Shown piece after piece: positions 2,792-60,926 of a stretch of DNA of 64,000 nucleotides. Origin of the DNA: an uncultured archaeon (GTDB taxonomy: Archaea > Thermoplasmatota > Penumbrarchaeia > JASLWR01); NCBI GenBank assembly GCA_964430885.1, contig CAYSHM010000006.1, positions 75,803 to 139,802 on the forward strand, in the 5' to 3' direction. Within the stretch, counting starts at the first letter, position 1, and each line of letters opens with the position of its first letter. Below the pieces are notes generated by a model. It ran no database searches. It was not told the DNA's origin and was given only the letters and a program-made list of their open reading frames with translations. Position numbers and translations under genes: made by a program.

Positions 2792-3421
2792 TTGTCAGAA
2801 GGATTACAGTTGAGGACATTTATATTCATCGATCAGATGCAGCCGCAATTTGCAGCATATCAGGCTACTGTCGGGAGAGGTTATCTGCCAGTATCAGGTA
2901 TGGCTGCAATATATATTGAAACTGCACCCGGAATGCCCATCAATCGGGTTACGGATCTGGCATTGAAATATACAAGTGTGAGACCGGCAGAACTAATAGT
3001 GGAGCGAGCTTTTGGAATGTTGGAATTCCATCATGAATCCCAGTCCGAGGTCAGAACAGCGGGAAAAGCCGTTCTAGATGGCCTAGGTTTGGAGGAGATG
3101 GACAGATATAAACCAAAGGTTGTGACCAATGAGATAATCAAGAAAATAGATGATTACCAGTCAATGATAATCAATCGTTCCTGGAGGGGTATGATGATCC
3201 TTCATGATCATTCTCTCTTCATTATGGAGACTCAGCCTGCCGCTTATATAACCTATGCCGCAAACGAGGCCGAAAAGGCAGCAGATATCAATATTGTCGG
3301 CATCAGGGCAGCCGGTGCCTTTGGCAGGCTGTACATCAGCGGTTGGGAATCCGATGTCAGGGCCGCAGCGGATGCCGCTACGACGGCCATAGAGGGTATT
3401 GACGGTAGGGATGATTGGTAG
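2792..3421 (+). CDS. BMC shell protein, tandem-domain BMC-T (EutL/PduB-like permuted type)
   Basis: Two BMC-like halves; second half 'AAYITYAANEAEKAADINIVGIRAAGAFGRLYISGWESDVRAAADAATTAIEGI' fits the BMC fold pattern. TTG start preceded by AGGAGG at 2776-2781. Call from recalled family motifs, not alignment. Confidence 0.55.
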   Translation: MSEGLQLRTFIFIDQMQPQFAAYQATVGRGYLPVSGMAAIYIETAPGMPINRVTDLALKYTSVRPAELIVERAFGMLEFHHESQSEVRTAGKAVLDGLGLEEMDRYKPKVVTNEIIKKIDDYQSMIINRSWRGMMILHDHSLFIMETQPAAYITYAANEAEKAADINIVGIRAAGAFGRLYISGWESDVRAAADAATTAIEGIDGRDDW

Positions 3422-4190
3422 TTCCGCCGACCTAGGTGTCTTTATGGATCCCGACCGTCTCAGGACCATCGTTCTGGAGCAGGTACGGAGATATTTTCAG
3501 AACGAGGGAATGGAGTTCATTCGATATGAAAAGGATTCCGAAGAAGGATCTAAAGGTATATTGATAGTGATAAACCGAACTGATCCATCAATGGACCTTT
3601 TATTCAGCCAGATAAACAATCTGGTATCTGCTGGTCATAACATCACATTGATGAGCACCTCCGAAGTGAGGGCAATATTGGGCCAGCAGGGCTATTGGTC
3701 ACTTGACCGGATCACCTACTTGTCTATTGATGATACCCGAAAGGTCAACATGAAAATTGACGAATATTGGTCCCTGCTATTTCCGGTTATAGGTTACTCC
3801 CTGGCCGGAGAGATATCAGCCTTAAAAGATACAAATCCATTGGCGGATTTGGCTTTGACGGCCCTGCGCAGTGGATTGGATGTCGGAGTGGCAGTGGATA
3901 CCCTTGAGACTGTAGGGAAGAAGGCTCGTAGGCCAAAGCTGATCTCCGAGTCCACCAGGATACAGAAGGGCTTATCGGGAATAGGCGTGAGATTGGTAAC
4001 CCTGGAAAATATGGTCAACGAGATGTCCTTTGACAAACGGAGGTTCACAGGCCGAGTGCTGACAGAGGATATAATAAACAGCTATATGTCCCGTGGCGTG
4101 TTCGATATCAATGTGGATGAAGATACTGTGATCACGCCTTTGGCAAGGGAAAGGGCAAGGGAGTTGAACATTCGAATAAATATCATTTAG
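3411..4190 (+). CDS. BMC-locus protein of unknown function; N-terminal amphipathic helix may be an encapsulation peptide
   Basis: ORF 3399..4190 with in-frame ATG at 3411 and 3444. N-terminus 'DPDRLRTIVLEQVRRYF' is amphipathic; C-terminal 'GRVLTEDIINS...VITPLARERARELNI' loosely resembles a segment of the N-terminal domain of the DeoC fusion at 11266. No family recognised. Confidence 0.45.
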   Translation: MIGSSADLGVFMDPDRLRTIVLEQVRRYFQNEGMEFIRYEKDSEEGSKGILIVINRTDPSMDLLFSQINNLVSAGHNITLMSTSEVRAILGQQGYWSLDRITYLSIDDTRKVNMKIDEYWSLLFPVIGYSLAGEISALKDTNPLADLALTALRSGLDVGVAVDTLETVGKKARRPKLISESTRIQKGLSGIGVRLVTLENMVNEMSFDKRRFTGRVLTEDIINSYMSRGVFDINVDEDTVITPLARERARELNIRINII

Positions 4191-4238
4191 AAATTGAATT
4201 AATAGGATCAGATATCATAGATCAAGGAGTGTAAGAAA

Positions 4239-4532
4239 ATGAAATTGTGCAGAGTGGTAGGAAATGTGGTAGCCACTGTCAAGGACCGAAACATCGAGTC
4301 CTTCAAGCTGATGATAGTACAACCGGTGGATTTCAAGGAACAGAAGCCCTATGGAGAGCCTCTAGTGGCAATAGATGCGGTTGGTGCCGGCCAAGATGAG
4401 CTGGTCCTGATAGTTCAGGGAAGTTCCGGCAGAATGACCGCTATAACTGACCAGAAACCGTCCGACTGTACGATAATGGCAATTGTGGATTTTGTGACCT
4501 TAAACGGTGAACAGACCTTTGCAAAACGGTGA
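4239..4532 (+). CDS. BMC vertex (pentamer) protein, EutN/PduN/CcmL family (BMC-P)
   Basis: 97 aa; 'MKLCRVVGNVVATVK...AIDAVGAGQDELVLIVQGSSGR...AIVDFVTLNG' matches the EutN/CcmL pattern. ATG at 4239 with AAGGAG upstream. Confidence 0.85.
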   Translation: MKLCRVVGNVVATVKDRNIESFKLMIVQPVDFKEQKPYGEPLVAIDAVGAGQDELVLIVQGSSGRMTAITDQKPSDCTIMAIVDFVTLNGEQTFAKR

Positions 4533-4550
4533 TCGAGGGAGGTTTTAATA

Positions 4551-5981
4551 ATGGAGATCAGGCAGGATCAGATAAATAATATTGTGGATGAGATAGTTAG
4601 AAGAGTGGAGCTGGATATGAGCTATGGGAAACCGAACATGGGGCCAGCCAAGCAGGGAGGCACTACAGGTATCTACAGCACTATTGACGAGTGTATTGAG
4701 AAGGCGAAGAAGGCAAGAAAGTTTTTGATGTCAATGTCATTGGATCAAAGGCAGAAGCTGATAGATGCCATGAAAGGGGAGATATTGCAGAACGCAGATC
4801 CTCTGGCCAAGCTTGCTGTTGAGGAGACTGGATTGGGTCGGTACAAGGACAAGGTGAATAAGAACATTCTGGCTGCGACAAAGACCCCTGGATGCGAGGA
4901 CCTGCAGACTGAAGCCCAGACGGGCGACGACGGTCTCACACTGTACGAGATGGGGCCCTTTGGAATTATAGCTTCCATAACACCTACTACCAATCCCACG
5001 TCAACGATCACATGCAACTCCATCGGCATGATCGCTGCTGGAAACGCTGTTGTGTTCAATCCCCATCCGAGGGCTACCAAGACCAGTCTGGAGACCATAA
5101 GACTGCTGAACCGGGGTATTCAGTCGGCAGGAGGTCCTACTGATCTTATAACAACGGTTAAAAAACCAACAATTGACACAAGCCAGGCTCTTATGAACCA
5201 TAAGGAGGTCAATCTACTCTGCGTAACCGGCGGTGAAGGAGTGGTGCATTACGGTCTTACCAGAGGGAAAAAATGCATTGCAGCAGGTCCGGGAAATCCT
5301 CCTGTTTTCGTGGACGATACCGCTGATCTGATACGGGCGGGCAGGGATATTGTGGACGGAGCCAGTTTTGACAACAATATCCTCTGTATAGCTGAAAAAG
5401 AGGTTCTGGTATTCGAAAATGTGGCAGATAGGCTAATCTCTGAGATGAGGAAACACGGTGCACATCTGGTCAGCGGAAAGGAGATAGACCGGCTGATAGA
5501 TTTGGTATTCAATGATCCCTCGGGAGAGATCCCCCTGGTGAACACCAAATGGGTGGGTCAGGATGCAGGTAAGATACTGCGGAACATAGGAATAACCGAT
5601 AAGTTCAATGCGCGATTGATCCTTGCCGAGGTTCCTCACGATCATCCATTCGTGCTGGCTGAAATGCTAATGCCAATACTGCCCATAGTTAGGGTGAAAT
5701 CCATAGATGAGGCCCTTAAAATTGGTCTGAGAGCCGAACATAGATTCAGACATACCGCAGCTATGCATTCCACAAATGTGGACAATATGACCAAGGTGGG
5801 ACGGGCAATGGAAACCACAATATTCGTTAAGAACGCTCCATCCTATGCAGGTCTGGGTTTTGGAGGTGAGGGATACTGCTCCCTTACAATAGCCGGACCA
5901 ACCGGTGAAGGAGTTACAAGGGCGAGGAATTTTGCCAGATTGAGAAGATGTACGCTCAAGGATTCATTCAGAATTGTGTGA
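4551..5981 (+). CDS. CoA-acylating aldehyde dehydrogenase (PduP/EutE-like) with N-terminal encapsulation-peptide-like helix
   Basis: 476 aa; catalytic-Cys region 'DNNILCIAEKE', 'GPFGIIASITPTTNPT'. N-terminal 'QDQINNIVDEIVRRVEL' amphipathic helix followed by linker. GAGGGAGG upstream. Confidence 0.85.
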   Translation: MEIRQDQINNIVDEIVRRVELDMSYGKPNMGPAKQGGTTGIYSTIDECIEKAKKARKFLMSMSLDQRQKLIDAMKGEILQNADPLAKLAVEETGLGRYKDKVNKNILAATKTPGCEDLQTEAQTGDDGLTLYEMGPFGIIASITPTTNPTSTITCNSIGMIAAGNAVVFNPHPRATKTSLETIRLLNRGIQSAGGPTDLITTVKKPTIDTSQALMNHKEVNLLCVTGGEGVVHYGLTRGKKCIAAGPGNPPVFVDDTADLIRAGRDIVDGASFDNNILCIAEKEVLVFENVADRLISEMRKHGAHLVSGKEIDRLIDLVFNDPSGEIPLVNTKWVGQDAGKILRNIGITDKFNARLILAEVPHDHPFVLAEMLMPILPIVRVKSIDEALKIGLRAEHRFRHTAAMHSTNVDNMTKVGRAMETTIFVKNAPSYAGLGFGGEGYCSLTIAGPTGEGVTRARNFARLRRCTLKDSFRIV

Positions 5982-6028
5982 ATAATAATCGATAATAAAT
6001 ATTTCAGTCCAGCAGATCAGGTGAAAAA

Positions 6029-7390
6029 ATGGCTTCATTGGGAACGGATATGGTAAGGAACTCGGGGATAATAGGTGCGGGTGGTGCAGGTTTTCCTACC
6101 CATGTCAAGCTGGCAGCTAAGGTTGATTGTGTAATAGCCAATGGTGCCGAATGTGAACCCCTTCTCAAGGCGGATAAGCAGCTCATGGAGCATTTCCCTG
6201 AAAAAATACTGGATGGTATGAAAGCAGCCATGGATATGACGGGAGCCCAGAAAGGTATAATAGCTCTAAAGAGAAAGTATGCGGATGCGGTGTCCTCCTT
6301 CAGAACTCGATTGGCGGATGCTGTGAACGGTAGATATGAAGGAATATCCATATTTGAACTTGAGAACTTCTATCCTGCAGGCGACGAACAGGTCATGGTC
6401 TATGAAGTGTTAGGACGGGTAATTCCCGAAGGCGCCATACCATTGTCAGCAGGTGTTGTTGTGGACAATGTGGGGACCCTGGCCCAAATATCGGAAGCCA
6501 TTGAAGGAAAAAATGTTACCCATCGGTGGGTAACGGTCACTGGTGAAGTGGCCTACCCAAAGACCCTTTACATCCCTATAGGTACTTCTATAGAAAAGAT
6601 GCTTGGATTGTGCGGGGGTCCGACAATAACCAATTACAGGATATTATCCGGAGGTCCCATGATGGGACGTCTAGTAAACCTTACCGATAGTGTTCTGAAA
6701 ACCACCTCGGGTATCATAGTTTTCCCGGCAGATCATTATGTTGTGAAGGCTAAAACCCGCCCGGTGGAAGTGAATGTTAGGTATACTTTAGCGGCATGCA
6801 TTCAGTGCAAAATGTGCACTGATGTATGTCCCAGATTCAATCTGGGTAAGTATGTATGTCCGGACAGTGTGATGAAAGGCATCGCTTACGGAATACTTTC
6901 AAAACCGGAGGATATGACCACCGCATTCCTCTGCGTTGAGTGCGGATTATGCACCCATTACGGATGCCCTATGGGTTTGGACCCCTGCGGTATGATGGGG
7001 AAGGTCAAATCCGAACTTATTTCCGAAGGTATGACGAACCCACATTCAAGGACGGATCTGTCTGCCAGGGAATACAGGCCTTTCAGAAAGGTTCCCCTAA
7101 AAAGATTGATGGCCAGGATGGATCTTTTGAGATATGATGTACCGGCACCCATGGAGCTGAAGGACCTATCGAAGGTTATTACAGAAGTGAATATCCCTCT
7201 TAAACAGCACATAGGCGCGCCTTCGAAACCTGTTGTGAAAGTGGGAGATCAAGTGAAGAAGGGTGAACTGATAGCAGATATTCCAAAAGGTTCTCTGGGG
7301 GCACGGTATCATTCCAGCATTAACGGTGAAGTAACAGGTGTGGATTCCTGCATCAGTATTAGAGCAAAGAAAATCGGAGGAATTGAATGA
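6029..7390 (+). CDS. PduS-like RnfC-family Fe-S flavoprotein (electron-transfer partner of PduT)
   Basis: 'GIIGAGGAGFPTHVKLAAKVDCVIANGAECEPLLKADKQLM' nucleotide-binding motif; two Cys clusters 'CIQCKMCTDVCP' and 'CVECGLCTHYGCP'; PduS-type C-terminus. Confidence 0.8.
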   Translation: MASLGTDMVRNSGIIGAGGAGFPTHVKLAAKVDCVIANGAECEPLLKADKQLMEHFPEKILDGMKAAMDMTGAQKGIIALKRKYADAVSSFRTRLADAVNGRYEGISIFELENFYPAGDEQVMVYEVLGRVIPEGAIPLSAGVVVDNVGTLAQISEAIEGKNVTHRWVTVTGEVAYPKTLYIPIGTSIEKMLGLCGGPTITNYRILSGGPMMGRLVNLTDSVLKTTSGIIVFPADHYVVKAKTRPVEVNVRYTLAACIQCKMCTDVCPRFNLGKYVCPDSVMKGIAYGILSKPEDMTTAFLCVECGLCTHYGCPMGLDPCGMMGKVKSELISEGMTNPHSRTDLSAREYRPFRKVPLKRLMARMDLLRYDVPAPMELKDLSKVITEVNIPLKQHIGAPSKPVVKVGDQVKKGELIADIPKGSLGARYHSSINGEVTGVDSCISIRAKKIGGIE

Positions 7391-7944
7391 GAGAGTCTAT
7401 AGGTCTCATGGAGTTCAACAGCATTGCAAAGGGTATTGAGGTGACGGATGTTCTTCTGAAGGCTTCCGAGGTGGAACTCATATTCTCATCGCCGGTGTGT
7501 CCTGGAAAGTATCTGATAATGATCTCTGGTGAGGTGGAGGCTGTTAAGAATTCACTGGGAAAAGGAGCCGACATATCGGATGGTTTCCTCATCGATCAAA
7601 GTGTAATACCTCAGGTTCATGAAAAGGTGTTCCCAGCCATAGCTGGGACCACACTGCCCGAGGTGATGGGGGCCATTGGTGTCATAGACTGCTATTCTTC
7701 GGTTTCGGCAGTAGTGGCAGCCGATAAAGCGGTGAAATCCGCCGATGTAGATCTGCTGGAGATTCGATTGGCCAGGGCGTTGGGAGGAAAGGCCTTTGTC
7801 ATAATAACAGGTGAGGTTGCCGATGTGAGGGCAGGTGTCGATAACGGAGTTGAGTCCATAAAGGAACACGGACTGCTGCTGGGCACAGTGGTAATTCCGT
7901 CCCCCCACCAGGACCTACTGGAAACGTTGATAGGATCGAGATGA
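7387..7944 (+). CDS. PduT-like tandem BMC-T shell protein with conserved Fe-S ligand Cys38
   Basis: 185 aa, two BMC domains; 'SIAKGIEVTDVLLKASEVELIFSSPVCPGKYLIM' parallels PduT '[34 protein letters not shown]' as recalled. Start ATG overlaps PduS stop (ATGA). Confidence 0.85.
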   Translation: MRESIGLMEFNSIAKGIEVTDVLLKASEVELIFSSPVCPGKYLIMISGEVEAVKNSLGKGADISDGFLIDQSVIPQVHEKVFPAIAGTTLPEVMGAIGVIDCYSSVSAVVAADKAVKSADVDLLEIRLARALGGKAFVIITGEVADVRAGVDNGVESIKEHGLLLGTVVIPSPHQDLLETLIGSR

Positions 7945-8041
7945 TCAGATCATAAATTCATATCACGATTAATTAAATTAATTAATTGATGAATAATTTG
8001 AAGAATATAATCAAGAAGATGAAAAATAGAAGTTGATTGAA

Positions 8042-8548
8042 ATGAGAATTTGCAGGGTAATAGGCAATCTGGTATCCACATGCAAGATACCTGATCACGA
8101 AGGTTTCAAGATACTGGCGGTTCGTGCTGTCGATCTTCACGGCAGAATGCATGGTGAGACCTTTCAGGCTATAGATTGCGCCCAGGCAGGTGTGGGTGAT
8201 TTTGTGCTCGTGATAGAGGAAGGAGGCTCCTGCAGTCAGGTGATGAGCGGAGTTAAGTCGCTAACCCCCAAGGGTGACCGGGTGGCAGTCAACAAGTCCA
8301 TTCTTGCTGTTGTGGATTATATTGAGGCTGATGGAGAGCTCAGAAGGCTGGAGCAGACAGCAGAGATGGAAGAGGATGGAGGAAAGAAAAAATTAAGAAG
8401 TACCAAGGTTAAAAGAAAGACCTCCAAGGCTACTGGAAAAAAGGGTAAAGAAAAAAAAAGTGAAAAAACGTCAGGAAAAAATTCCCGCAAACCTGCTAAA
8501 ACCTTGGCAACAAAGAAAGGCAAGGGCGGTAAGAAGAAGAAGGGTTGA
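8042..8548 (+). CDS. BMC vertex protein (EutN/CcmL family) with about 60-aa lysine-rich C-terminal extension
   Basis: 'MRICRVIGNLVSTCK...AIDCAQAGVGDFVLVIEEGG' BMC-P core, then tail 'GKKKLRSTKVKRKTSKATGKKGKEKKSEKTSGKNSRKPAKTLATKKGKGGKKKKG'. ORF-track start 8033 is TTG; first ATG at 8042. Confidence 0.8.
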   Translation: MRICRVIGNLVSTCKIPDHEGFKILAVRAVDLHGRMHGETFQAIDCAQAGVGDFVLVIEEGGSCSQVMSGVKSLTPKGDRVAVNKSILAVVDYIEADGELRRLEQTAEMEEDGGKKKLRSTKVKRKTSKATGKKGKEKKSEKTSGKNSRKPAKTLATKKGKGGKKKKG

Positions 8549-8554
8549 TAGATT

Positions 8555-9469
8555 ATGTCAGAAGACGAGCTCAGAAAGTTAGTAGAAAACATGGTTCGAT
8601 CCATGCTGGAATCCGGTTCTGTGGAGATACAGAAGGGAACTGCTCTAAGGACCCAGGGAGATATCTCAAGGCCTACCAACAATTATTTTAATGATCAGAT
8701 GGAGGGTAATGCCCGGTATGTGGTTGCAGCCAATTGGAAGATGAACATGACCACCATAGAGGCCAAGGAATTCGCTATGCAGATAAGGGCCTTAGGAGAG
8801 GAAATTTCCAATAGTAAAAGGGATGCAGTGGTCTGTCCTCCTATTTATTTGGCTCCTCTTCTGAAAACAGCGTTCATGGGGACGGGTATCCGGTTGGGCG
8901 GTCAGAATATGCACCATGAGACCAAGGGTGCTTATACCAGCGAGATATCGCCTCTAATGCTTAAGGATGCGGGTTGTCAATATGTGATAATTGGACATTC
9001 TGAAAGGAGACATATATTTGGTGAAAAGGACCATCATATCAATATGAAGGTGAGGTCAGCTTTCAATCATGGCCTTGTACCTCTTTTCTGCGTTGGCGAG
9101 ACCGAGAAGGAACGGGAGAGCAATGCTACCTTCAGGGTTGTCAGGAAACAATTGAAATTGGGCCTCTATAAGACAAGCTCCAAGCAATCCGGCAGGCTGA
9201 TAATCGGTTATGAACCGGTTTGGGCAATAGGCACTGGGAGAAATGCTACTCCGGCTGACGCCCAAAGGGTACATGCATTCATCAGGGAGGTTCTGACGGA
9301 GATCTACGATTTCCCCACGGCCAAGAATATCAGGATTCTCTACGGCGGAAGCGTTACACCTGATAATGCTTCAGGTCTTATAGCCAAAAAAGATATCGAC
9401 GGTTTCCTGGTGGGGGGTGCTTCTCTCACCGCTTCCAAGTTTATGAGCATAGCGGAGGTGTGCAAATGA
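8555..9469 (+). CDS. tpiA: Triosephosphate isomerase, bacterial type, with about 50-aa N-terminal extension (putative encapsulation peptide)
   Basis: 'AANWKMN', 'IGHSERR', 'YEPVWAIGTG', 'YGGSV' motifs. N-terminal 'EDELRKLVENMVRSMLE' amphipathic helix precedes the catalytic core. Confidence 0.85.
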   Translation: MSEDELRKLVENMVRSMLESGSVEIQKGTALRTQGDISRPTNNYFNDQMEGNARYVVAANWKMNMTTIEAKEFAMQIRALGEEISNSKRDAVVCPPIYLAPLLKTAFMGTGIRLGGQNMHHETKGAYTSEISPLMLKDAGCQYVIIGHSERRHIFGEKDHHINMKVRSAFNHGLVPLFCVGETEKERESNATFRVVRKQLKLGLYKTSSKQSGRLIIGYEPVWAIGTGRNATPADAQRVHAFIREVLTEIYDFPTAKNIRILYGGSVTPDNASGLIAKKDIDGFLVGGASLTASKFMSIAEVCK

Positions 9470-9945
9470 GCCAGGATATGAGGAAGATATTGATAGGTAG
9501 TGATCACGGGGGATTTGAGTTAAAGGAGATTATTAGACAGTTCCTCAAGGACCAGGGATACCGGGTTGTTGATTTTGGTTGCTATTCGCCGGACCCTGTT
9601 GACTATCCAGATATTGCCTTTTTGGTCTCTCAGGGGGTGTGTTCGAATCCTAATTCAATTGGTATAATGATAGATGGGGTAGGTGTTGCCAGTACAATGG
9701 TTGCAAACAAGATTCCCGGGATCAGGGCCGCCCTTTGCTGGAATCAGTTCAGCGCACACAATGCACGTGAGCACAACAATGCAAATATGCTCGTCCTAGG
9801 GGGTAGGGTAATCGGTGATATATTGGCCAGGAGCATTGTGAAGGAATTCCTGGAAACAGAATTTGCCGGCGGACGGCACGCACGGAGGGTAGACAAGATA
9901 ATGGCGATTGAAGCCAAATATCTGAGGTCTATTCAGGAAAAATGA
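9466..9945 (+). CDS. rpiB: Ribose-5-phosphate isomerase B (RpiB/LacAB family)
   Basis: 'KILIGSDHGGFELKE', 'MLVLGGRVIG', 'FAGGRHARRVDKI'. ATG at 9466 overlaps tpiA stop (ATGA); alternative ATG at 9478. Confidence 0.8.
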   Translation: MSQDMRKILIGSDHGGFELKEIIRQFLKDQGYRVVDFGCYSPDPVDYPDIAFLVSQGVCSNPNSIGIMIDGVGVASTMVANKIPGIRAALCWNQFSAHNAREHNNANMLVLGGRVIGDILARSIVKEFLETEFAGGRHARRVDKIMAIEAKYLRSIQEK

Positions 9946-10047
9946 GTTAAAAGTTAACAGAGTTAGGATAAATTTATTAGTTCAGTGTAATAATAATATA
10001 AAACTTAATAATATAGAGTTGAGAGACGAATCTTGAGGAGTGAACCA

Positions 10048-10335
10048 ATGTATATCGGTAAAGTAATGGGAACCGTGGTGGCCACAAGGAAGATAGATAC
10101 CCTTAAAGGGATCAAACTGCTCCTAATACAGCCCTTGGATGATGATATGAAACCCTCGGGAAGGTTACTGGTGGCCGGGGATGCCCAGGGAGATACAGGA
10201 GAAGGTGATGTGGTATATTTGGTCACCAAGAAGGAAGCCTGTTTCCCCTTCGGTGGTCTGACCCCCCTTGATCACGCTGTGGCGGGTTATATTGATGATT
10301 ATCATATTGAAGAATCTTTAAAAGAGGGGAAATAA
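10048..10335 (+). CDS. BMC vertex protein (EutN/PduN/CcmL family), third paralog
   Basis: 'MYIGKVMGTVVATRKIDTLKGIKLLLIQP...LVAGDAQGDTGEGDVVYLV'. ORF-track TTG start at 10033; first ATG at 10048 after GAGGAG. Confidence 0.8.
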   Translation: MYIGKVMGTVVATRKIDTLKGIKLLLIQPLDDDMKPSGRLLVAGDAQGDTGEGDVVYLVTKKEACFPFGGLTPLDHAVAGYIDDYHIEESLKEGK

Positions 10336-10640
10336 GCATAACATGGACACTGCGGACAACCATCCAAGGCTCTATTTACCTGGAAGAAATATTTGGACAG
10401 TAAATAATAATATAGGAATAAGGTAAGATTAGTGTGTTAATTTAATCCTGTTACCAGGATGTGAATTCATAATAGTATTGGATAGGGCATGGGTATGAGT
10501 AAAGGTAAAAAGCAATAGATGAAAAATTCGAAATCAGCTATTGAAATGTATAATCAATCAAAAATTATTGAGAAGTAGTAGTCAAGGATTATTACAATGG
10601 AGATACATTGAATCCAAAACAAATCAAGGAGGAAAAATAA

Positions 10641-10934
10641 ATGAGAGATCTACAGAAAATTGCATTGGGAATGATTGAGACAAAGGGAGAGATAGGAGCT
10701 ATAGAAGCTGCAGATGCCATGGTAAAGGCAGCCAAAGTGACCCTTATCGGAAAGGATTTCGTCGGCGGCGGCTATGTGTGCGTTATGGTCAGGGGAGAGG
10801 TTGGGGCTGTCAAGGCGGCAATAGACGCCGGTGGAGCCGCTGCAGCCAGGGTCGGAGAGCTTGTCTCAGTTCACGTTATTCCCAGGCCCCACGAGGAAGT
10901 AGAGGATGTTCTGCCTTCCATTGATAGGGATTAA
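10641..10934 (+). CDS. BMC hexamer shell protein (BMC-H, PduA/EutM/CcmK-like)
   Basis: '[26 protein letters not shown]...[33 protein letters not shown]' matches the canonical BMC-H pattern closely. AAGGAGG upstream. Confidence 0.9.
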
Positions 10935-11265
10935 AGTAATACTGCATTAAATTGTTATTTGCAGGGATGGGCTGAAATATTCGCCTGCTCCCTTAGAGAA
11001 CAGGATTTGCATTTGGAGATTTATCCTCAAAATAATAATGATATTCTTTTAGGAAGATCATCTGAATGTTTTATCCTGCAATTTACTCAATAGGATTAAA
11101 TCGAATTGATATCTATGGTGATCATGAAAGCAAAGGCCATATGTCAATTACTTCCAGATTGAAATGCGGGTAGTATTGTTACCTTTGATATCAAGATCCG
11201 GGATATGGAATGTATGGCCTAAACACCACGAAAAAATTCAAGAATAGTGATAATGAAGTGATACA

Positions 11266-12705
11266 ATGGAAAGGGAGGAAGCGATCAAAAGGATAACCGA
11301 AGAGGTTCTTGCAAGAATTAGGGGCGCATCTTCGGGTAATTCTTTGAATACCTCACAGGGATCTGCCGCGGATCAATCCGAAAAGGGACGGAGTGCACCT
11401 TATTTAGCCTCTGGGGGAAAATCCATTATTATGATACTCAGCGGAGACCGGACTATTGAGGATCTGAGAGAGGACATCAGTTCCATATGCAGTAGCCAGA
11501 AGGTTGAAATGATAGTGGTATCCGATTGGGCTCTTAGGTCCTTCAACATCTTTAAACTCAAGGGTTTAGCTCCTGGGATAAAACTGCTCCAGGAGGGGGA
11601 CATATTGGGCAGCAAGACAATATCAGACATCTTATCAGACGTTGACTCGGTCTATGTTCTCGACCTGGATATTCCCAGTGCTTCGCGTATTGCAGATTTT
11701 GCTCCAGTGCTGCCTGCTGAAAGGGTTATCACAGGGGCAATTATTTCCGGTAAAAGCGTTATCTGTTCACATGCACTTCTGAGCCCAATGGCAGGGGAGC
11801 TAACTCCTCCATGCGCCCGTGAGGCCATTTCCGCAGTTGAGAAGAAGCTCGTGGCCGTCGGTGTTGCCATGCTTGGTTCGGGGACTTCTTTCAGTGATAA
11901 TGAAGCAGTGGAACAGGCCCTAGCCCGCTGCCCGGCGGGTGAAGGAGAATGTATTGGATGCGGATTGTGCGTGAACCTGAACACAGCAGGCGTGGAGAAC
12001 ATCTTTTCAGCCGGAGCCCAGAGGATTAGTACGGCTACCGGATTGGATACCCCCAATCCAGATATGGCTCGTATGATAGATCACACGCTGCTGAAACCCG
12101 CTGCCACAGAGGATGATATCCGGGAGCTATGTGATGAGGCTAGAAGATACAATTTCGCTACGGTATGTGTTAATCCATCCCATGTAGCCCTTGCAGCAAG
12201 GGAGCTGAGAGGAACGGATGTTGGTATCACCACTGTCATCGGTTTCCCCCTGGGAGCAACAACCCATACCGCAAAGTCCATTGAGACCCGGGATGCAATA
12301 GCCAATGGCGCCAATGAGATAGATATGGTGGTTAACGTTGGCGCTCTGAAGGCTGGCAACGATGATCTGGTAAAAAGGGATATTGCGTCAGTGGTGAACG
12401 CTGCAGGCAATGATGCTATTGTCAAGGTGATTCTTGAGACCTCTCTGCTGAATGACGAGGAGAAGGTCAGGGGCTGCCTGCTCTCAAAGATGGCCGGGGC
12501 GGATTATGTGAAGACATCCACTGGTTTTGGTCCTGGCGGCGCTACCGTAGAGGATATCCGCTTAATGAGGCAGACTGTGGGCCCAGATATGGGGGTTAAG
12601 GCCTCTGGAGGGATCAGAAATACAGACGATGCCAATGCCATGCTTGAAGCAGGTGCTTCAAGGATAGGTGCTAGTGCTTCAGTTGCCATTGTTAAGGGCG
12701 CATGA
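11266..12705 (+). CDS. deoC: Deoxyribose-phosphate aldolase (DERA/DeoC) fused to about 265-aa N-terminal domain of unknown function with Cys cluster and encapsulation-peptide-like N-terminus
   Basis: C-terminal 'IDHTLLKP...VCVNP...[12 protein letters not shown]...VKASGGIR' are DeoC hallmarks. N-terminal '[15 protein letters not shown]' amphipathic helix; Cys cluster '[14 protein letters not shown]'. Confidence 0.85.
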
Positions 12706-12818: not shown

Positions 12819-14678
12819 ATGAATGAAAAAGACCTCCAAAGGGACGATGGTCCCGCTACAGGGAATACCATGGAAAATGAAGAGGAGTTTTCATACACTT
12901 CCGGTGAAATAACCGGCAAATCTCCCATGGAGCAAACTCTGGATCAAGGTCTTCAATTTCTCGAATACCTCCAAAAGCGGAAGGAAACATACAGGGCGGT
13001 CAAACTATATTTTCATAATGACATGGACGGTTTTGCTTCCTCACTTCTTGTGAACCATCTCCTGACAAAGATCGGTTATGAAATTCCTCTGGAGAACATA
13101 CACCCCTTGGCTCATGTCAACCTGAATAATGTGGCAATAGATGAACAGCATCTATTTTTCTTTGTAGATATACGGCCCCCTAGCTCAGCTTTCAAAGAAT
13201 CAAGTCTGGCGGGAGAGGATAGACCTTTCATGGAAAATGTTTTCTGTGTGGATCATCACACAACCCTGGATTCACCCCTTTCACCCCATGCGAATTTCTT
13301 TCTTTACAACTATGAGATCGATGATATTCTTCCATCCACTGCCACCTTCCTGATGTATTATCTTGTAATGCTTGAGAAAGGGATCAGGGGAACCTACGGT
13401 GCCCTCATGAGGGAATGGATGACGAACCCCCCCATGAACACAAGATATCTTCTGCTACAGGCCACCATTGCTGATCATCTTCATCTTCTGTCGGAAAAGC
13501 TACCCAATAATCCCCTGAGGTATCTATCCAACCTGCTTATTGAGGATATGGATGCCTATGTGCTCCTATCAATAACCACCTCACTGCTGCTGGGAGGGGA
13601 CGGCGGACATATGGATATGTTCAGGCAACTATATTCCGAAGCCCTGGGGAATATCAATCAGGAATTAATGGCCCAGAAATTAGAGAACAATCTTTCTCAG
13701 GTACTTTCGCTTTTTGAATTCGTGGATATTCTCATGAAGAAGCGTAAGGAATTCATCGATGATATGGCCAAGGATATGGATGGGGAGATCCAGAGAACAG
13801 AAGCTGGGATCAGCGGAATGACGGATACCCTGAATAACTATAACACCGCAGCCGATAAGATCAAGGAGGAACTCTCATTCCAGAATATAGCTATGGGGAA
13901 ACTGAAGGATCTTCGAAATGATTACATGGGTATCAGGGAGCAGATGACGCGTTTAGAGAACCAGATAGGTATTGAGTTGGGAAGGCTTGAAAAACAGAAA
14001 GTTCTCAGATACCATCTTGTGGCTGAAGGAGACATCAATTTATCAGTTTTCCTGCCACCCCAGAACAATGATCAGGTTAGAGGCATACTGTCATCACTTC
14101 TATTTTATCACGGTAATAACAACATCATCATAGAGGAGAAGACATCCAAGGCCGTGTGGAGTTCAAGGGGTTATGAGGGAAAGGAATTGGAAAGCTTCCT
14201 GACAACAGTATCGGTGGACATGGAGAAATTGATGGAACTGAAGGAACATCAGGAGGCGGTGGAGGAATTTAAGGGAGATCCAACCATAATTGAGAAGCTT
14301 GAATTGGATGAGAGGTCCCCTCCTTTGATATCTGTGGAGAACCGATATATCGGACAGATGGGTGGCAGGAGTAGGATATTCGGCGGTATCATTACCAGCA
14401 ATGTCACCCTTGATGCTAGCACTTTGGTTCAAGACAGAGGAGGTAATGAACTACAGTCCATACTTACGGTTCCTCACCAGCGGTTCTGGATATCAACTAT
14501 ACAAGCAATAAAGGAAAAATTCAAGGAGAGCCAGTGGTTCACAGTACAGGTGGAAGGGGGTGCAAGCTTGGGCGAGATACTCTCAGACCAGTGGGAGCTG
14601 CTGCTGATGCATTTCATGGGCAATAGGATGTCATACAGGATTTTTGAACTGAAAAGCAATGGTCAAGATGGCATCTGA
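12819..14678 (+). CDS. DHH-family phosphoesterase-like protein with central coiled-coil
   Basis: 'HNDMDGFAS' and 'VDHHT' resemble DHH motifs I and III of RecJ/NrnA-type phosphoesterases; rest unassigned. Confidence 0.45.
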   Translation: MNEKDLQRDDGPATGNTMENEEEFSYTSGEITGKSPMEQTLDQGLQFLEYLQKRKETYRAVKLYFHNDMDGFASSLLVNHLLTKIGYEIPLENIHPLAHVNLNNVAIDEQHLFFFVDIRPPSSAFKESSLAGEDRPFMENVFCVDHHTTLDSPLSPHANFFLYNYEIDDILPSTATFLMYYLVMLEKGIRGTYGALMREWMTNPPMNTRYLLLQATIADHLHLLSEKLPNNPLRYLSNLLIEDMDAYVLLSITTSLLLGGDGGHMDMFRQLYSEALGNINQELMAQKLENNLSQVLSLFEFVDILMKKRKEFIDDMAKDMDGEIQRTEAGISGMTDTLNNYNTAADKIKEELSFQNIAMGKLKDLRNDYMGIREQMTRLENQIGIELGRLEKQKVLRYHLVAEGDINLSVFLPPQNNDQVRGILSSLLFYHGNNNIIIEEKTSKAVWSSRGYEGKELESFLTTVSVDMEKLMELKEHQEAVEEFKGDPTIIEKLELDERSPPLISVENRYIGQMGGRSRIFGGIITSNVTLDASTLVQDRGGNELQSILTVPHQRFWISTIQAIKEKFKESQWFTVQVEGGASLGEILSDQWELLLMHFMGNRMSYRIFELKSNGQDGI

Positions 14679-14939
14679 TTTTCTGCACCTGAAATATGAT
14701 CACTTCACTTCGATAGCCTATCATCCAATGATATATTCCAATGAAAAATTTTAAAAATGATACACCTTTTCCACTTACAGAACCGAATAGGAGTTTTTTC
14801 GGGGATAATATGAACTAAAAAATGTTATACTTGGTGTAACATAAACATGGATTCATAGTGTATTGGTTTGATCAATCAAAGTGCTAAGGGGATTGAATTG
14901 ATCTTGGTGATCTCCCGAGGAGATACAAGAGGTGGATAG

Positions 14940-15827
14940 ATGAACATTGAGAACAAGTTATGGTTTGGAATCATAGTAGGTGCAGTTGTTTTGCTGATAG
15001 TTTCAGTTATTCTTTATGCTACATTCAAAGAGGAAAACGTTGAGGAAGGAAAGACCTCCATTCCTGTAATTCTAGAGGGTTATGAGATAGAGTACAAATA
15101 TACGGTCCGAATCGGCGGACCTAACGGACCGGTATATGATTCCAATATGGACAATATCATAAACTCATCTCTGGTTGAGAAAACGGTTTTCTATAATAAC
15201 TATGCTCAATGGCCGGAACGTTTCATAGTTGGTGAGCACCCGGCCGATGCGGAATTACCTTCCTTCAGCGATCATTTCATTGGACATGAGGAAGGGGACC
15301 ATTTCAATTTCGTTCTTTCGGGGGTGAGCCGTCTAGAATATAACGACAGTAAAAGGGTGGAAATACCTGTGAAGGAGAAGATACCTCTCTATGAGACAGT
15401 GAACAAAGAGCAGTTCAAATCATCGTTAGGAGCTGTGGATTTGAAGGTTGGTATGATATATAATCATGGTTTTTGGGGATGGGAAATTGAGATTTTTGAA
15501 TTTATCGACGAGAATAATATGACAATTTATCACAGACCTGAGATAGGTTACGAAATAGATGTTCTTCCCTGGTCTTCCGAAGTGAAGGATGTATCATCTG
15601 AAACGGGTTTCATAACTCTGAATCATGATCTGACAGATAAAGATCTTCTAAAGGGCCAGTTCTACCCCTTTGAATACACGGATTATTCTGACCATTTTGA
15701 TAATATGAACAATCCGGGTTACATCCAACAGCTTGGTCCGAATTATATAGTGATCGAGTTCAATGATGAACGCGCAGGTGCGGATATTTATTTTGATATA
15801 GAGATAGTGAGGATTCTGAATTCCTGA
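14940..15827 (+). CDS. N-terminally membrane-anchored protein, function unknown (possibly FKBP-like)
   Basis: N-terminal TM helix 'LWFGIIVGAVVLLIVSVILYA'; ORF with ATG start. Confidence 0.4.
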   Translation: MNIENKLWFGIIVGAVVLLIVSVILYATFKEENVEEGKTSIPVILEGYEIEYKYTVRIGGPNGPVYDSNMDNIINSSLVEKTVFYNNYAQWPERFIVGEHPADAELPSFSDHFIGHEEGDHFNFVLSGVSRLEYNDSKRVEIPVKEKIPLYETVNKEQFKSSLGAVDLKVGMIYNHGFWGWEIEIFEFIDENNMTIYHRPEIGYEIDVLPWSSEVKDVSSETGFITLNHDLTDKDLLKGQFYPFEYTDYSDHFDNMNNPGYIQQLGPNYIVIEFNDERAGADIYFDIEIVRILNS

Positions 15828-15839
15828 TGAGGTGATGTA

Positions 15840-58524: not shown

Positions 58525-58694
58525 AATGGCCTACCCCCATTTATCAATTTAGCCTGATGAATTTGGATTAAAAATTGAATTTATTTATTATTCAAGATAT
58601 TATATATATATTTATACCTGTAACTATTTCATATTCAGTGTTGGTATCATAACCTGAACGGTAATTAAAATTGAGATTTTACAGGTGTGTACGG

Positions 58695-60323: not shown

Positions 60324-60327
60324 TAGA

Positions 60328-60894: not shown

Positions 60895-60926
60895 AATGAA
60901 TTATCGGTCATCCAAGGTATCAAAGA

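What the first reader, a model, noticed from the sequence alone, without database searches (positions are those of the whole stretch)
4551..12705. Cargo set predicts a deoxyribose/sugar-phosphate (DERA-type) metabolosome
Cargo comprises DeoC (deoxyribose-5-P to acetaldehyde plus glyceraldehyde-3-P), a CoA-acylating aldehyde dehydrogenase (acetaldehyde to acetyl-CoA), triosephosphate isomerase and RpiB, with a PduS/PduT redox pair. This resembles the sugar-phosphate-utilising BMC class known from uncultured anaerobic bacteria. No phosphotransacylase (PduL/Pta), acetate kinase or alcohol dehydrogenase is present in the locus, so CoA/NAD recycling is unexplained unless PduS/PduT or the unknown proteins at 3411 and 11266 take that role.
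Basis: partly seen in the sequence, partly recalled or inferred. Interest (0 to 1): 0.8.

Follow-up and report, generated by a model that had tools for sequence, protein, structure and literature searches.

The report
Archaeal deoxyribose-phosphate microcompartment gene cluster
This is a complete gene cluster for a protein-shelled organelle that breaks down the sugar of DNA (deoxyribose-5-phosphate), of a type well known in bacteria. The unusual point is that it sits natively in an archaeal (Thermoplasmatota-like) genome, and a 2025 preprint has already reported that.

Summary
Window 2792-12705 (+ strand) is one 12-gene microcompartment operon.
- **Shell (6 genes):** one BMC-H, one PduT-like BMC-T, one CcmP-like double-stacking BMC-T (Tdp), and three BMC-P.
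- **Cargo (6 genes):** CoA-acylating aldehyde dehydrogenase, PduS-type NADH dehydrogenase, triosephosphate isomerase, an SPU-type RpiB variant, a DERA fusion protein, and a 248-aa unknown protein.

Catalytic residues of DERA (D353/K416/K445) and of the aldehyde dehydrogenase (C279) are conserved. The reading as a sugar-phosphate-utilising (SPU) metabolosome is supported.

- The "unknown at 11266" is the N-terminal half of the DeoC gene itself: an encapsulation helix, a flavoprotein-fold domain and an invariant 4-Cys motif.
- The "unknown at 3411" is a Cys-less paralogue of that module.
- The operon starts at 2792, not 4551.

The host is archaeal. The L44e-S27e-aIF2alpha-Nop10-PAC2 genes lie 4 kb downstream. 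The same junction recurs in independent assemblies and in three diverged relatives, and codon usage is native.

No PTAC, acetate kinase or alcohol dehydrogenase is present. Tdp occupies the slot that PTAC holds in the Myxococcota and Hodarchaeota relatives. NAD+ recycling by PduS-PduT and CoA exchange through Tdp are published hypotheses.

Archaeal loci with this composition (Tdp present, no PTAC, one H) were described for Thermoplasmatota order JASLWR01 in a November 2025 preprint, so this is already known.

The parts
2792..3421 (+). BMC-Tdp shell protein: permuted tandem BMC domains, of the double-stacking trimer type with a large gated pore. First gene of the operon.
   Evidence: NCBIfam CcmP 256 bits. 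Precomputed Pfam hits CsoS1D_N + BMC. Best PDB matches are Haliangium HO-5816 BMC-T (229 bits), CcmP (213) and CsoS1D (196). It occupies the slot held by PTAC in Myxococcota and Hodarchaeota relatives. Its closest relatives in fetched loci are Chloroflexi SPU loci, at 46-52% identity.
3444..4190 (+). 248-aa conserved unknown, the 'DUF' of the literature. It has an N-terminal amphipathic helix (putative encapsulation peptide), a flavoprotein-fold-like domain and a ~50-aa C-terminal module. It has no Cys. The mechanical ORF starts at TTG 3399; the called start is ATG 3444.
   Evidence: No Pfam family. Its profile matches the N-terminal module of Flav-DERA proteins (hmmsearch; hhalign probability 99.5%, E 3.8e-23). 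Orthologues sit in the same position in archaeal, Myxococcota and Hodarchaeota loci.
4239..4532 (+). BMC-P pentamer (P1)
   Evidence: PF03319, E 1.8e-27
4551..5981 (+). CoA-acylating aldehyde dehydrogenase with an N-terminal amphipathic helix (residues ~1-22; putative encapsulation peptide) and catalytic Cys279.
   Evidence: PRK15398 655 bits; EutE and AdhE-type models are the next best. Best PDB match is 5jfl/5jfn at 469 bits. The Cys of DNNILCIAEKE aligns to the modified catalytic residue of 5jfn. Position.
6029..7390 (+). PduS-type metabolosome NADH dehydrogenase, with an FMN/NADH domain and two 4Fe-4S motifs.
   Evidence: Complex1_51K, SLBB, Fer4_17 and RnfC_N. CIQCKMCTDVC at residue 257. 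A second motif, CVECGLCTHYGC, is read in the sequence. The gene overlaps the Ts gene by 4 nt.
7387..7944 (+). BMC-Ts (PduT-like tandem-domain trimer) with the CPGK cluster-ligand motif, Cys38.
   Evidence: TIGR02526 PduT, E 1.6e-42. CPGK at residue 38.
8033..8548 (+). BMC-P (P2) with a ~75-residue Lys-rich disordered C-terminal tail. The likely start is ATG 8042.
   Evidence: PF03319 over residues 4-95. The tail has 28 K/R in 77 residues, and is absent from the three archaeal relatives. The analogous K/R-rich tails of Hodarchaeales P2 bind DNA/RNA (PMC12747264).
8555..9469 (+). Bacterial-type triosephosphate isomerase with a ~55-aa N-terminal extension that begins with an amphipathic helix.
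   Evidence: PF00121, E 2e-88, over residues 56-302. Bacterial TIM models score 175-309 bits, whereas the archaeal-type model NF003302 scores only 37 bits.
9460..9945 (+). SPU-type RpiB-family protein. The catalytic Cys66 (E. coli numbering) is replaced by Asp, and His99 is kept. There is no terminal extension.
   Evidence: PF02502, E 7e-54. The alignment to E. coli RpiB shows ILICGTG against IMIDGVG. The same substitution is reported for all SPU RPIs, and the SPU6 RPI that was assayed was inactive on ribose-5-P (PMC11585597).
10033..10335 (+). BMC-P (P3). The likely start is ATG 10048.
   Evidence: PF03319, E 5.9e-18
10641..10934 (+). BMC-H hexamer, the only one in the window.
   Evidence: PF00936, E 9.4e-27. 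tblastn finds no other H gene.
11266..12705 (+). Signature enzyme, a Flav-DERA fusion. It comprises an encapsulation-type helix (1-20), a disordered linker, an HFCD/flavoprotein-fold domain (~52-220), an invariant Cys4 motif (C222, C229, C232, C235) and a DERA TIM barrel (267-479) with D353, K416 and K445.
   Evidence: TIGR00126 287 bits. AF2 model mean pLDDT 82. The DERA barrel matches Geobacillus and B. halodurans DERA at TM 0.96 and 63-66% identity. The N-terminal domain matches MrsD/EpiD/UbiX (Foldseek E 7e-6, TM up to 0.74). PF02441 is found in 3 of 12 homologues. The mapping to E. coli D102/K167/K201 is.
12819..14678 (+). 619-aa protein with a weak DHH/RecJ-like N-terminus. It lies immediately downstream of DERA in all four archaeal lineages. 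Whether it belongs to the system is uncertain.
   Evidence: DHH E 6e-4 and archaeal RecJ model E 4e-7, both below their cut-offs. Conserved in position at 33-34% identity. No informative PDB match.

Best explanation
Window 2792-12705 encodes a sugar-phosphate-utilising (SPU, DERA-signature) metabolosome that is a native, vertically inherited part of an archaeal genome, most likely a deep-branching Thermoplasmatota.

**Proposed mechanism**
1. Deoxyribose-5-phosphate from nucleic-acid breakdown enters a shell built from one BMC-H, a PduT-like BMC-T, a CcmP-like BMC-Tdp and three BMC-P.
2. The Flav-DERA fusion cleaves it to glyceraldehyde-3-P and acetaldehyde.
3. The encapsulated acylating aldehyde dehydrogenase converts the volatile, toxic acetaldehyde, with CoA and NAD+, to acetyl-CoA and NADH.
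4. NADH is re-oxidised inside the shell by the PduS-type flavo-iron-sulfur protein. This passes electrons to the [4Fe-4S] site of the PduT-like trimer and so out of the shell.
5. TPI interconverts glyceraldehyde-3-P and DHAP.
6. There is no PTAC, so acetyl-CoA is not turned over inside. Acetyl-CoA and CoA are exchanged with the cytosol through the large gated pore of Tdp, whose gene sits where the PTAC gene sits in the closest bacterial and Hodarchaeota loci.
7. The Lys-rich tail on P2 probably tethers nucleic acid to the shell.

**Shown here:** gene content, domain identities, catalytic and cluster-ligand residues, putative encapsulation-type N-terminal helices on four cargo proteins, archaeal context, synteny and co-divergence.

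**Inferred:** the substrate, the direction of flux, the electron route, CoA exchange via Tdp, DNA binding by the tail, and any role of the flavoprotein-fold/Cys4 module and its paralogue.
For: - **Composition and significance of all 12 genes:**
- **DERA:** 287 bits to the deoC equivalog. D353, K416 and K445 are invariant in 30 homologues and align to E. coli D102, K167 and K201. The barrel superposes on solved DERAs at 0.7-0.8 A.
- **Aldehyde dehydrogenase:** 469 bits to 5jfl, with the catalytic Cys aligned.
- **PduT and PduS:** PduT CPGK Cys38 and PduS Fe-S motifs.
- **SPU hallmarks:** as defined in PMC11585597, all seen here.
- **PTAC/Tdp link:** PTAC-less SPU loci typically encode Tdp. Here, Myxococcota loci L003, L004 and L006 and Hodarchaeota L010 have PTAC (or CS+PTAC) immediately upstream of the DUF gene, exactly where Tdp lies in the window.
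- **Archaeal host:** L44e, S27e, aIF2alpha, Nop10 and PAC2 lie 4-6 kb downstream, and Cbf5 lies at 47 kb.
- **Not an assembly artefact:** the same junction occurs in Logan and JGI assemblies, and the proteins are also on record in NCBI and ENA assemblies, with contigs up to 151 kb.
- **Vertical inheritance:** three relatives with 53-59% identical DERA have the same operon next to the same host genes. BMC proteins are 31-83% identical and host proteins 55-82% identical between these lineages. RSCU correlation between the locus and host genes is 0.963, against 0.969 between host halves.
- **Taxon:** a >=90%-identical relative of P0010 is labelled Candidatus Thermoplasmatota archaeon. The nearest labelled Cbf5 hits are Thermoplasmatota/Thermoplasmata.
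- **Prior description:** the composition matches the JASLWR01 (Thermoplasmatota) archaeal microcompartments described in PMC12747264.
Against: - Nothing here is biochemical. No shell, activity or transcript was observed for this organism.
- The SPU-type RpiB has no assigned reaction, so part of the pathway is unexplained.
- CoA exchange through Tdp is a hypothesis in the literature, not a demonstrated transport.
- A PTAC or another CoA-releasing enzyme with an encapsulation peptide could be encoded outside the 64-kb window.
- The enzymes that would make deoxyribose-5-P (nucleoside phosphorylase, phosphopentomutase) are not in the window.
- The order-level host assignment rests on database labels of relatives, not on a phylogeny.
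- The flavoprotein-fold domain gives no significant PF02441 hit in the window protein itself, so flavin binding is uncertain.
Confidence: 0.75

Rival explanations
1. The locus is bacterial DNA joined to an archaeal contig by mis-assembly or mis-binning, so there is no archaeal microcompartment.
For: The cargo genes are bacterial in type. TPI matches bacterial rather than archaeal TIM models. DERA is 63-66% identical to Bacillota DERAs. The nearest loci in reference genomes are from Myxococcota.
Against: - The operon-to-host junction is identical in assemblies made by different pipelines from different samples.
- It is conserved in three lineages whose proteins have diverged to 31-83% identity.
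- Synonymous codon usage of the locus is indistinguishable from that of the host genes.
- GC content shows no step at the borders.
- An independent preprint reports such loci in archaea.
Confidence: 0.02
2. The shell and enzymes are real, but the physiological role is not deoxyribose-5-P catabolism. Alternatives are that DERA runs in the synthetic direction, or that the compartment handles another sugar phosphate routed through the RpiB-like protein and TPI, with acetaldehyde or another aldehyde as the confined intermediate.
For: The RpiB-like protein and TPI have no necessary role in the simple DERA-plus-AldDH scheme. The SPU RPI was inactive on ribose-5-P, and its substrate is unknown. DERA is reversible (established enzymology). 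No deoxynucleoside-salvage genes are in the window.
Against: - DERA active-site residues and fold are canonical.
- The one SPU DERA tested cleaves deoxyribose-5-P, with a reported Km value of 0.104.
- An acylating aldehyde dehydrogenase plus an NADH-oxidising PduS fits oxidative catabolism.
- A Lys-rich nucleic-acid-type tail on P2 fits a DNA-derived substrate.
Confidence: 0.13
3. CoA is recycled enzymatically after all. This could be by a PTAC or another CoA-releasing enzyme encoded elsewhere in the genome and targeted to the shell. It could also be, by the unknown 248-aa protein or the N-terminal module of the DERA fusion.
For: Only 64 kb of the genome is visible. Both unknown modules carry encapsulation-type N-terminal helices and are conserved across phyla, so they do something inside the shell.
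Against: - The DUF and the Flav-DERA module co-occur with PTAC in the Myxococcota and Hodarchaeota loci, so they do not substitute for it there.
- They have an HFCD flavoprotein fold, not an acyltransferase fold.
- They give no hit to PF06130 or to any CoA-utilising family.
- PTAC loss correlates with Tdp presence across SPU subtypes and positionally here.
Confidence: 0.1

Closest known systems
Archaeal microcompartments of Thermoplasmatota order JASLWR01 (and DPANN SpSt-1190), described in Du et al., bioRxiv November 2025 (PMC12747264)
   Same: Archaeal host. SPU-type cargo (Flav-DERA, AldDH, PduS/MNdh, RPI, DUF). An extra Tdp gene, no PTAC, and only one BMC-H, exactly as stated there for JASLWR01. 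The host's nearest labelled relatives are Thermoplasmatota.
   Different: I could not confirm that this contig belongs to order JASLWR01. It does not report the conserved junction with the L44e-aIF2alpha block, the PTAC-to-Tdp positional swap, or a Lys-rich P2 tail in this group. Its main text does not mention the Cys4 motif or the paralogy between DUF and the Flav module.
Hodarchaeales (Asgard) archaeal microcompartments, types I and II (PMC12747264)
   Same: Same core gene order from DUF to Flav-DERA. Same PduS-Ts pair with CPGK and three BMC-P genes. TPI is present, as in type II. A K/R-rich disordered tail sits on P2.
   Different: The Hodarchaeales loci have PTAC or a citrate synthase-PTAC fusion, and L010 has acetate kinase just downstream of DERA. 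They also have two or three H genes and no Tdp, and type II has a class II aldolase. Protein identity to the window is only 24-66%.
Bacterial SPU metabolosomes (Axen 2014, PMC4207490; Dwyer, Sutter & Kerfeld 2024, PMC11585597), especially the Myxococcota loci
   Same: DERA signature enzyme with an N-terminal extension. Acylating AldDH. RPI with Cys66 replaced by Asp. A BMC-P triplet and at least one Ts. PduS as an NAD+-recycling option. Tdp present where PTAC is absent. Gene order is collinear with Myxococcota L003, L004 and L006.
   Different: The host domain differs. Composition is mixed relative to the published subtypes. The core is most like the PTAC-positive, Tdp-negative, TPI-positive Myxococcota type, but the locus has a CcmP-like Tdp whose nearest relatives are in Chloroflexi loci. 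The subtype (SPU1-7) could not be assigned with these tools.
Pdu/Eut/GRM metabolosomes
   Same: Common metabolosome logic. An aldehyde is generated and consumed inside a BMC-H/T/P shell by a PduP/EutE-type dehydrogenase, with a PduS-PduT electron conduit.
   Different: The signature enzyme is an aldolase, not a B12 or glycyl-radical enzyme. There is no PTAC (PduL) or alcohol dehydrogenase, so two of the three canonical core enzymes are missing from the locus.

Membership tests
Bacterial microcompartment (BMC) locus | Genes for BMC-H/BMC-T (PF00936) and BMC-P (PF03319) shell proteins clustered with enzymes | tested here: met
   One H, one Ts, one Tdp and three P genes are interleaved with six cargo genes in 9.9 kb on one strand.
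Bacterial microcompartment (BMC) locus | Shell proteins assemble into a closed polyhedral shell | not testable with these tools
   This needs expression and electron microscopy. Homologous Hodarchaeales proteins do assemble (PMC12747264).
Metabolosome core | CoA-acylating aldehyde dehydrogenase with a catalytic Cys | tested here: met
   PRK15398 655 bits against a cut-off of 403. Cys279 aligns to the modified catalytic residue of 5jfn.
Metabolosome core | Phosphotransacylase (PF06130) for CoA recycling | tested here: not met
   Absent from the locus and from the window ORFs scanned against Pfam. Present in Myxococcota and Hodarchaeota relatives. The rest of the genome is not visible.
Metabolosome core | NAD+ regeneration by an alcohol dehydrogenase or a PduS-type NADH dehydrogenase with a PduT partner | tested here: met
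   There is no alcohol dehydrogenase. PduS (FMN domain plus two Fe-S motifs) overlaps the PduT-like Ts gene, which carries CPGK. Electron transfer itself was not tested.
SPU (sugar-phosphate-utilising) BMC | DERA (PF01791) as signature enzyme with the catalytic Asp/Lys/Lys | tested here: met
   TIGR00126 287 bits. D353, K416 and K445 correspond to E. coli D102, K167 and K201. Fold TM 0.96.
SPU (sugar-phosphate-utilising) BMC | N-terminal extension on DERA that is absent from non-BMC DERAs | tested here: met
   A 266-residue extension that includes an amphipathic helix at residues 1-20. DERAs at loci without shell genes, such as Enterococcus, have no extension.
SPU (sugar-phosphate-utilising) BMC | RpiB-family protein with the catalytic Cys66 replaced by Asp | tested here: met
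   IMIDGVG against E. coli ILICGTG, with His99 kept. Criterion from PMC11585597.
SPU (sugar-phosphate-utilising) BMC | At least a triplet of BMC-P genes and at least one BMC-Ts | tested here: met
   Criterion.
SPU subtype SPU1-SPU7 | Clustering with one subtype by shell-protein clades and enzyme set | tested here: inconclusive
   The enzyme set (PduS, TPI, RPI, no PTAC) plus a CcmP-like Tdp does not match any single description. The catalogue's own profiles are not available here.
JASLWR01-type archaeal microcompartment (PMC12747264) | Tdp present, PTAC absent, a single BMC-H | tested here: met
   set against the description. One relative lineage (P0004) has a second H gene.
JASLWR01-type archaeal microcompartment (PMC12747264) | Host belongs to Thermoplasmatota order JASLWR01 | tested here: inconclusive
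   The archaeal host is certain. The nearest labelled relatives are Candidatus Thermoplasmatota/Thermoplasmata. Order-level placement needs a marker phylogeny.
Hodarchaeales type II archaeal microcompartment | TPI plus class II aldolase plus PTAC/CS, with two or three H genes | tested here: not met
   TPI is present. Class II aldolase, PTAC and citrate synthase are absent, and there is only one H gene.

The most novel reading that the evidence does not exclude
The HFCD-flavoprotein-fold domain with an invariant ferredoxin-like Cys4 motif fused to DERA, together with its Cys-less encapsulated paralogue (the 'DUF'), forms a so far unrecognised redox or cofactor-handling module of SPU metabolosomes. 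One possibility is an internal Fe-S/flavin relay that couples the signature enzyme to the PduS-PduT conduit, or that senses redox state. In this reading, the swap of PTAC for Tdp in the Thermoplasmatota lineage marks an adaptation of a bacterial organelle to archaeal acetyl-CoA metabolism, with acetyl-CoA exported to a cytosolic ADP-forming acetyl-CoA synthetase.
Probability: 0.15. Interest if true: 0.7.

Novelty: already known. Interest (0 to 1): 0.42.

Why it matters
Microcompartments were long taken to be exclusively bacterial (for example PMC6620236). This window gives independent, sequence-level confirmation of the recent preprint claim that archaea carry them.

It also adds three points for the Thermoplasmatota group:
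- The operon is fixed at one chromosomal position next to the L44e-S27e-aIF2alpha block.
- It has co-diverged with the host.
- It is codon-adapted to the host.

So it is an old, functional acquisition rather than a recent transfer or contamination.

The PTAC-to-Tdp positional replacement is a natural experiment. It bears on an open question in the field, namely how metabolosomes that lack a phosphotransacylase recycle CoA.

As a finding in its own right, it is a correct identification of a known system.

Tried and rejected
- **tRNA and Rfam scans of the window:** nothing found.
- **Source of the samples:** paper searches for sample and run accessions (SRR8062321, SAMN10231893, 3300007511, Ga0105000) gave no relevant hit.
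- **GTDB r220 representative genomes:** the scan did not return the window's own lineage. The best match was 46% identity, in Myxococcota-type MAGs, so taxonomy had to be inferred indirectly.
- **Fold search with the full-length Flav-DERA model:** the result list was saturated by DERA structures and said nothing about the N-terminal domain. A second model of residues 1-262 was needed.
- **BLASTP between the DUF and the Flav module:** found nothing. Only profile methods showed the paralogy.
- **Uncontrolled iterative profile search from the DUF:** it drifted through fusion proteins into DERA, RPI and TPI, and was discarded.
- **Profile of the Flav module against PDB sequences:** only insignificant hits, including L7Ae at E 0.02.
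- **DHH-like neighbour:** no informative family or PDB match.
- **Supplementary tables of the preprint:** not available, so I could not check whether this contig is in its dataset.
- **Assembly chimera and recent HGT:** considered and rejected (see the rival explanations).

Full report
**1. What is in the sequence**

ORF listing and profile searches show an uninterrupted run of twelve + strand genes from 2792 to 12705:

| Coordinates | Product |
|---|---|
| 2792-3421 | CcmP/CsoS1D-like double-stacking BMC-T (Tdp) |
| 3444-4190 | 248-aa protein without a family |
| 4239-4532 | BMC-P |
| 4551-5981 | aldehyde dehydrogenase |
| 6029-7390 | PduS-like flavo-iron-sulfur protein |
| 7387-7944 | PduT-like BMC-T |
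| 8033-8548 | BMC-P with a long tail |
| 8555-9469 | triosephosphate isomerase |
| 9460-9945 | RpiB-family protein |
| 10033-10335 | BMC-P |
| 10641-10934 | BMC-H |
| 11266-12705 | 479-aa protein whose C-terminal 210 residues are DeoC |

- E-values run from 1e-14 to 1e-197, so chance is not an issue.
- Gene calls made on an independent assembly agree.
- No phosphotransacylase, acetate kinase or alcohol dehydrogenase is in the locus or in the window ORFs scanned against Pfam.
- No further shell genes exist in the window.

The 'unknown at 11266' is the DeoC gene itself, and the operon starts 1.8 kb upstream of the stated start.

**2.

- *DERA domain.* It scores 287 bits on the deoC equivalog model against a cut-off of 117. 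It superposes on solved DERAs at 0.7-0.8 A with 63-66% identity. D353, K416 and K445 are invariant in 30 homologues and align to E. coli D102, K167 (the Schiff-base lysine) and K201.
- *Aldehyde dehydrogenase.* It falls in the PduP/EutE acylating subfamily, scoring 655 bits on PRK15398. Its best solved relatives are the chains 5jfl/5jfn and 4c3s, which I recall, from memory, to be microcompartment-associated acylating dehydrogenases. Cys279, in DNNILCIAEKE, aligns to the covalently modified catalytic residue of 5jfn.

Neither refutation criterion is met.

**3. It is an SPU metabolosome**

Dwyer, Sutter and Kerfeld (PMC11585597) define SPU loci by five features:
- DERA with an N-terminal extension;
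- an acylating AldDH;
- an RPI in which E. coli Cys66 is replaced by Asp;
- a triplet of BMC-P genes;
- at least one BMC-Ts.

PduS, TPI, PTAC and Tdp are variably present. All the defining features are present here. The window RPI reads IMIDGVG where E. coli reads ILICGTG, and it keeps His99. It is therefore the SPU-type variant, whose assayed SPU6 member was inactive on ribose-5-P, and not a canonical RpiB.

Amphipathic N-terminal helices of the encapsulation-peptide kind are present on four cargo proteins:
- AldDH: MEIRQDQINNIVDEIVRRV
- TPI: MSEDELRKLVENMVRSML
- Flav-DERA: [20 protein letters not shown]. This one is predicted helical, and I10, E13 and V14 are nearly invariant.
- The 248-aa protein: MDPDRLRTIVLEQVRRYF

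**4. The two 'unknowns'**

*The first 266 residues of the DERA protein* consist of:
- the helix described above;
- a disordered linker;
- a confidently modelled alpha/beta domain (pLDDT about 90). It matches FMN/FAD-binding HFCD proteins (MrsD, EpiD, UbiX, PPC decarboxylase) at Foldseek E 7e-6 and TM up to 0.74;
- a C-x6-C-x2-C-x2-C motif ([14 protein letters not shown]). It is invariant in all 30 full-length homologues and gives sub-threshold 4Fe-4S ferredoxin hits.

Three of twelve homologues reach PF02441 Flavoprotein, which agrees with the 'Flav+DERA' label of the preprint.

*The 248-aa protein* is a paralogue of this module (hmmsearch; hhalign 99.5%, E 3.8e-23 over 225 columns), but it has no cysteines. 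Its C-terminal ~50 residues form a small conserved unit. That unit also occurs as ~90-aa ORFs just downstream of DERA in Elusimicrobia and Caldiserica loci, and inside the N-terminal extension of Chloroflexi SPU RPIs.

Neither module resembles PTAC or any CoA-dependent family. Both coexist with PTAC in related loci.

**5. Cofactor recycling**

*NAD+.* The PduS gene has an FMN/NADH domain and two Fe-S motifs. It overlaps the gene for a PduT-like trimer that carries the CPGK cluster ligand. This is the MNdh-BMC-T electron conduit invoked in both papers.

*CoA.* Dwyer et al. note that SPU loci without PTAC typically encode a Tdp, whose large gated pore could pass acetyl-CoA. The comparison made here sharpens this point.
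- Myxococcota-type loci (L003, L004, L006) have the order PTAC - DUF - P - AldDH - PduS - Ts - P - TPI - RPI - P - H - Flav-DERA - class II aldolase.
- Hodarchaeota L010 starts with a citrate synthase-PTAC fusion and ends with acetate kinase.
- The window is collinear from DUF to Flav-DERA, but has Tdp exactly where PTAC lies. Its Tdp is most similar to those of Chloroflexi SPU loci, at 46-52% identity.

From general knowledge, most archaea make acetate from acetyl-CoA with a cytosolic ADP-forming acetyl-CoA synthetase rather than with Pta-Ack. Exporting acetyl-CoA would fit the host, but this is inference.

**6. The host is an archaeon and the locus is native**

*Archaeal markers.*
- Ribosomal proteins L44e and S27e, aIF2alpha, Nop10 and a PAC2 protein follow within 4-6 kb.
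- Cbf5, with its DKCLD and PUA domains, lies at 47 kb.
- A relative's contig also carries TBP.

*Not an assembly artefact.*
- The same operon-host junction is present in Logan and JGI assemblies, and the proteins are also on record in NCBI and ENA assemblies, with contigs up to 151 kb.
- Three relatives whose DERA is only 53-59% identical have the same operon. It is followed by the same 600-aa DHH-like gene, a 300-aa gene, FKBP, then L44e/S27e, aIF2alpha, PAC2 and TatD.

*Co-divergence and codon adaptation.*
- Between these lineages the microcompartment proteins are 31-83% identical (H 83%, DUF 31%).
- The host proteins are 55-82% identical (L44e 82%, PAC2 55%).
- Relative synonymous codon usage of the locus correlates with host genes at 0.963, against 0.969 between two halves of the host set.

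This is co-divergence after an old acquisition, not a chimera or a recent transfer.

*Bacterial origin.* The bacterial character of the parts points to a bacterial origin: a bacterial-type TIM, RpiB, and Myxococcota as the nearest reference genomes.

*Taxon.*
- A >=90% identical relative of P0010 is deposited as Candidatus Thermoplasmatota archaeon.
- The nearest labelled Cbf5 homologues are a 'Candidatus Therm...' label (truncated in the output; 59%) and Thermoplasmata (50-53%).

**7. Comparison with what is known**

Du et al. (bioRxiv, November 2025, PMC12747264) report archaeal microcompartments of the SPU type. They are found mainly in Hodarchaeales, and also in Thermoplasmatota order JASLWR01 and in DPANN SpSt-1190. 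The last two groups have an additional Tdp and no PTAC, and JASLWR01 has lost one BMC-H.

The window matches that description feature for feature, and its host affinity fits. The kind is therefore known, and this group has already been noted, if briefly.

The following are not in the preprint's main text, nor in Dwyer et al. as far as term searches show:
- the fixed chromosomal context and co-divergence in the Thermoplasmatota group;
- the positional PTAC-to-Tdp swap;
- a Lys-rich P2 tail in this lineage only (28 K/R in 77 residues; absent from the three relatives);
- the Cys4 motif, which in the same or another 4-Cys pattern marks most SPU DERA extensions but is absent from the SPU6-like Chloroflexi enzymes and from Paenibacillus;
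- the paralogy between the DUF and the Flav module.

**8. Verdict**

- The system is an SPU-type metabolosome in an archaeal (Thermoplasmatota-like) genome, already known from a 2025 preprint.
- Confidence in the identification is high. Confidence in the mechanistic details (substrate, electron export, CoA exchange via Tdp) is moderate, because none of them was tested biochemically for this organism.

Noticed in passing
window 11929-11970 (residues 222-235 of the 11266-12705 protein); also loci L003-L092: There is an invariant C-x6-C-x2-C-x2-C motif (CIGCGLC, ferredoxin-like) between the flavoprotein-fold domain and the DERA barrel. The same or another 4-Cys pattern occurs in most SPU DERA N-terminal extensions across phyla. 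It is missing from SPU6-like Chloroflexi, from Paenibacillus and from non-BMC DERAs. Neither paper mentions it in the text I could search. It suggests an Fe-S or Zn site on the signature enzyme.
   Followed up: partly
window 3444-4190; L012:11276-11566, L019:10953-11219, L079:1259-2104 and others: The C-terminal ~50 residues of the 248-aa DUF (LTE..V....G...I.V....VITPLA...A.ELGI.I) recur in two other settings. One is as stand-alone ~90-aa ORFs just downstream of DERA in Elusimicrobia and Caldiserica loci. The other is inside the N-terminal extension of Chloroflexi SPU RPIs. There are weak, sub-threshold resemblances to the E3-binding domain and to TIGR02536. It may be a docking module.
   Followed up: partly
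window 12819-16766: A 619-aa protein with a weak DHH/RecJ-like N-terminus, a 295-aa membrane-anchored unknown and an FKBP-domain protein follow the DERA gene in the same order in all four archaeal lineages. Whether the nuclease-like protein feeds the DNA-sugar pathway or is simply a syntenic host gene is open.
   Followed up: partly
window 8318-8548: The Lys-rich disordered tail on the second BMC-P (28 K/R in 77 residues) is present only in the window's lineage among the four archaeal relatives. It resembles the DNA-binding tails reported for Hodarchaeales P2.
   Followed up: partly
relatives of window 11266-12705 in NCBI nr (MDP6156688.1, MDP7266400.1): Public annotation lists 213-aa DERA-only proteins for a close relative of the Flav-DERA gene, about the length of the DERA domain. 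These may be annotation truncations that drop the N-terminal 260 residues. Dwyer et al. warn of this start-site problem for SPU enzymes.
   Followed up: no
window 10336-10640 and 10935-11265: Unusually long non-coding gaps (305 and 331 nt) flank the single BMC-H gene. The same gaps are 59-294 nt in relatives. There is no Rfam match and no shell-gene remnant by tblastn.
   Followed up: partly
window 28167-32378 and 32546-36757 (- strand): Two tandem 1403-aa paralogues carry Lamin-tail and Big_5 domains. Together with the PKD-repeat protein at 64-2439 (cut by the window start) and the 1535-aa protein at 19427-24034, they make a set of giant surface-type proteins.
   Followed up: no
window 54610-58524 (- strand): A 1304-aa protein with an N-terminal seven-bladed WD40 propeller, unusual in size for an archaeon.
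   Followed up: no
window 58671-61852: A nucleotide-related cluster: an amidohydrolase-NUDIX fusion (550 aa), an isochorismatase-family hydrolase and a dCTP deaminase/dUTPase-like protein. It is possibly relevant to the supply of deoxynucleotide-derived substrate, but it lies 46 kb from the operon.
   Followed up: no
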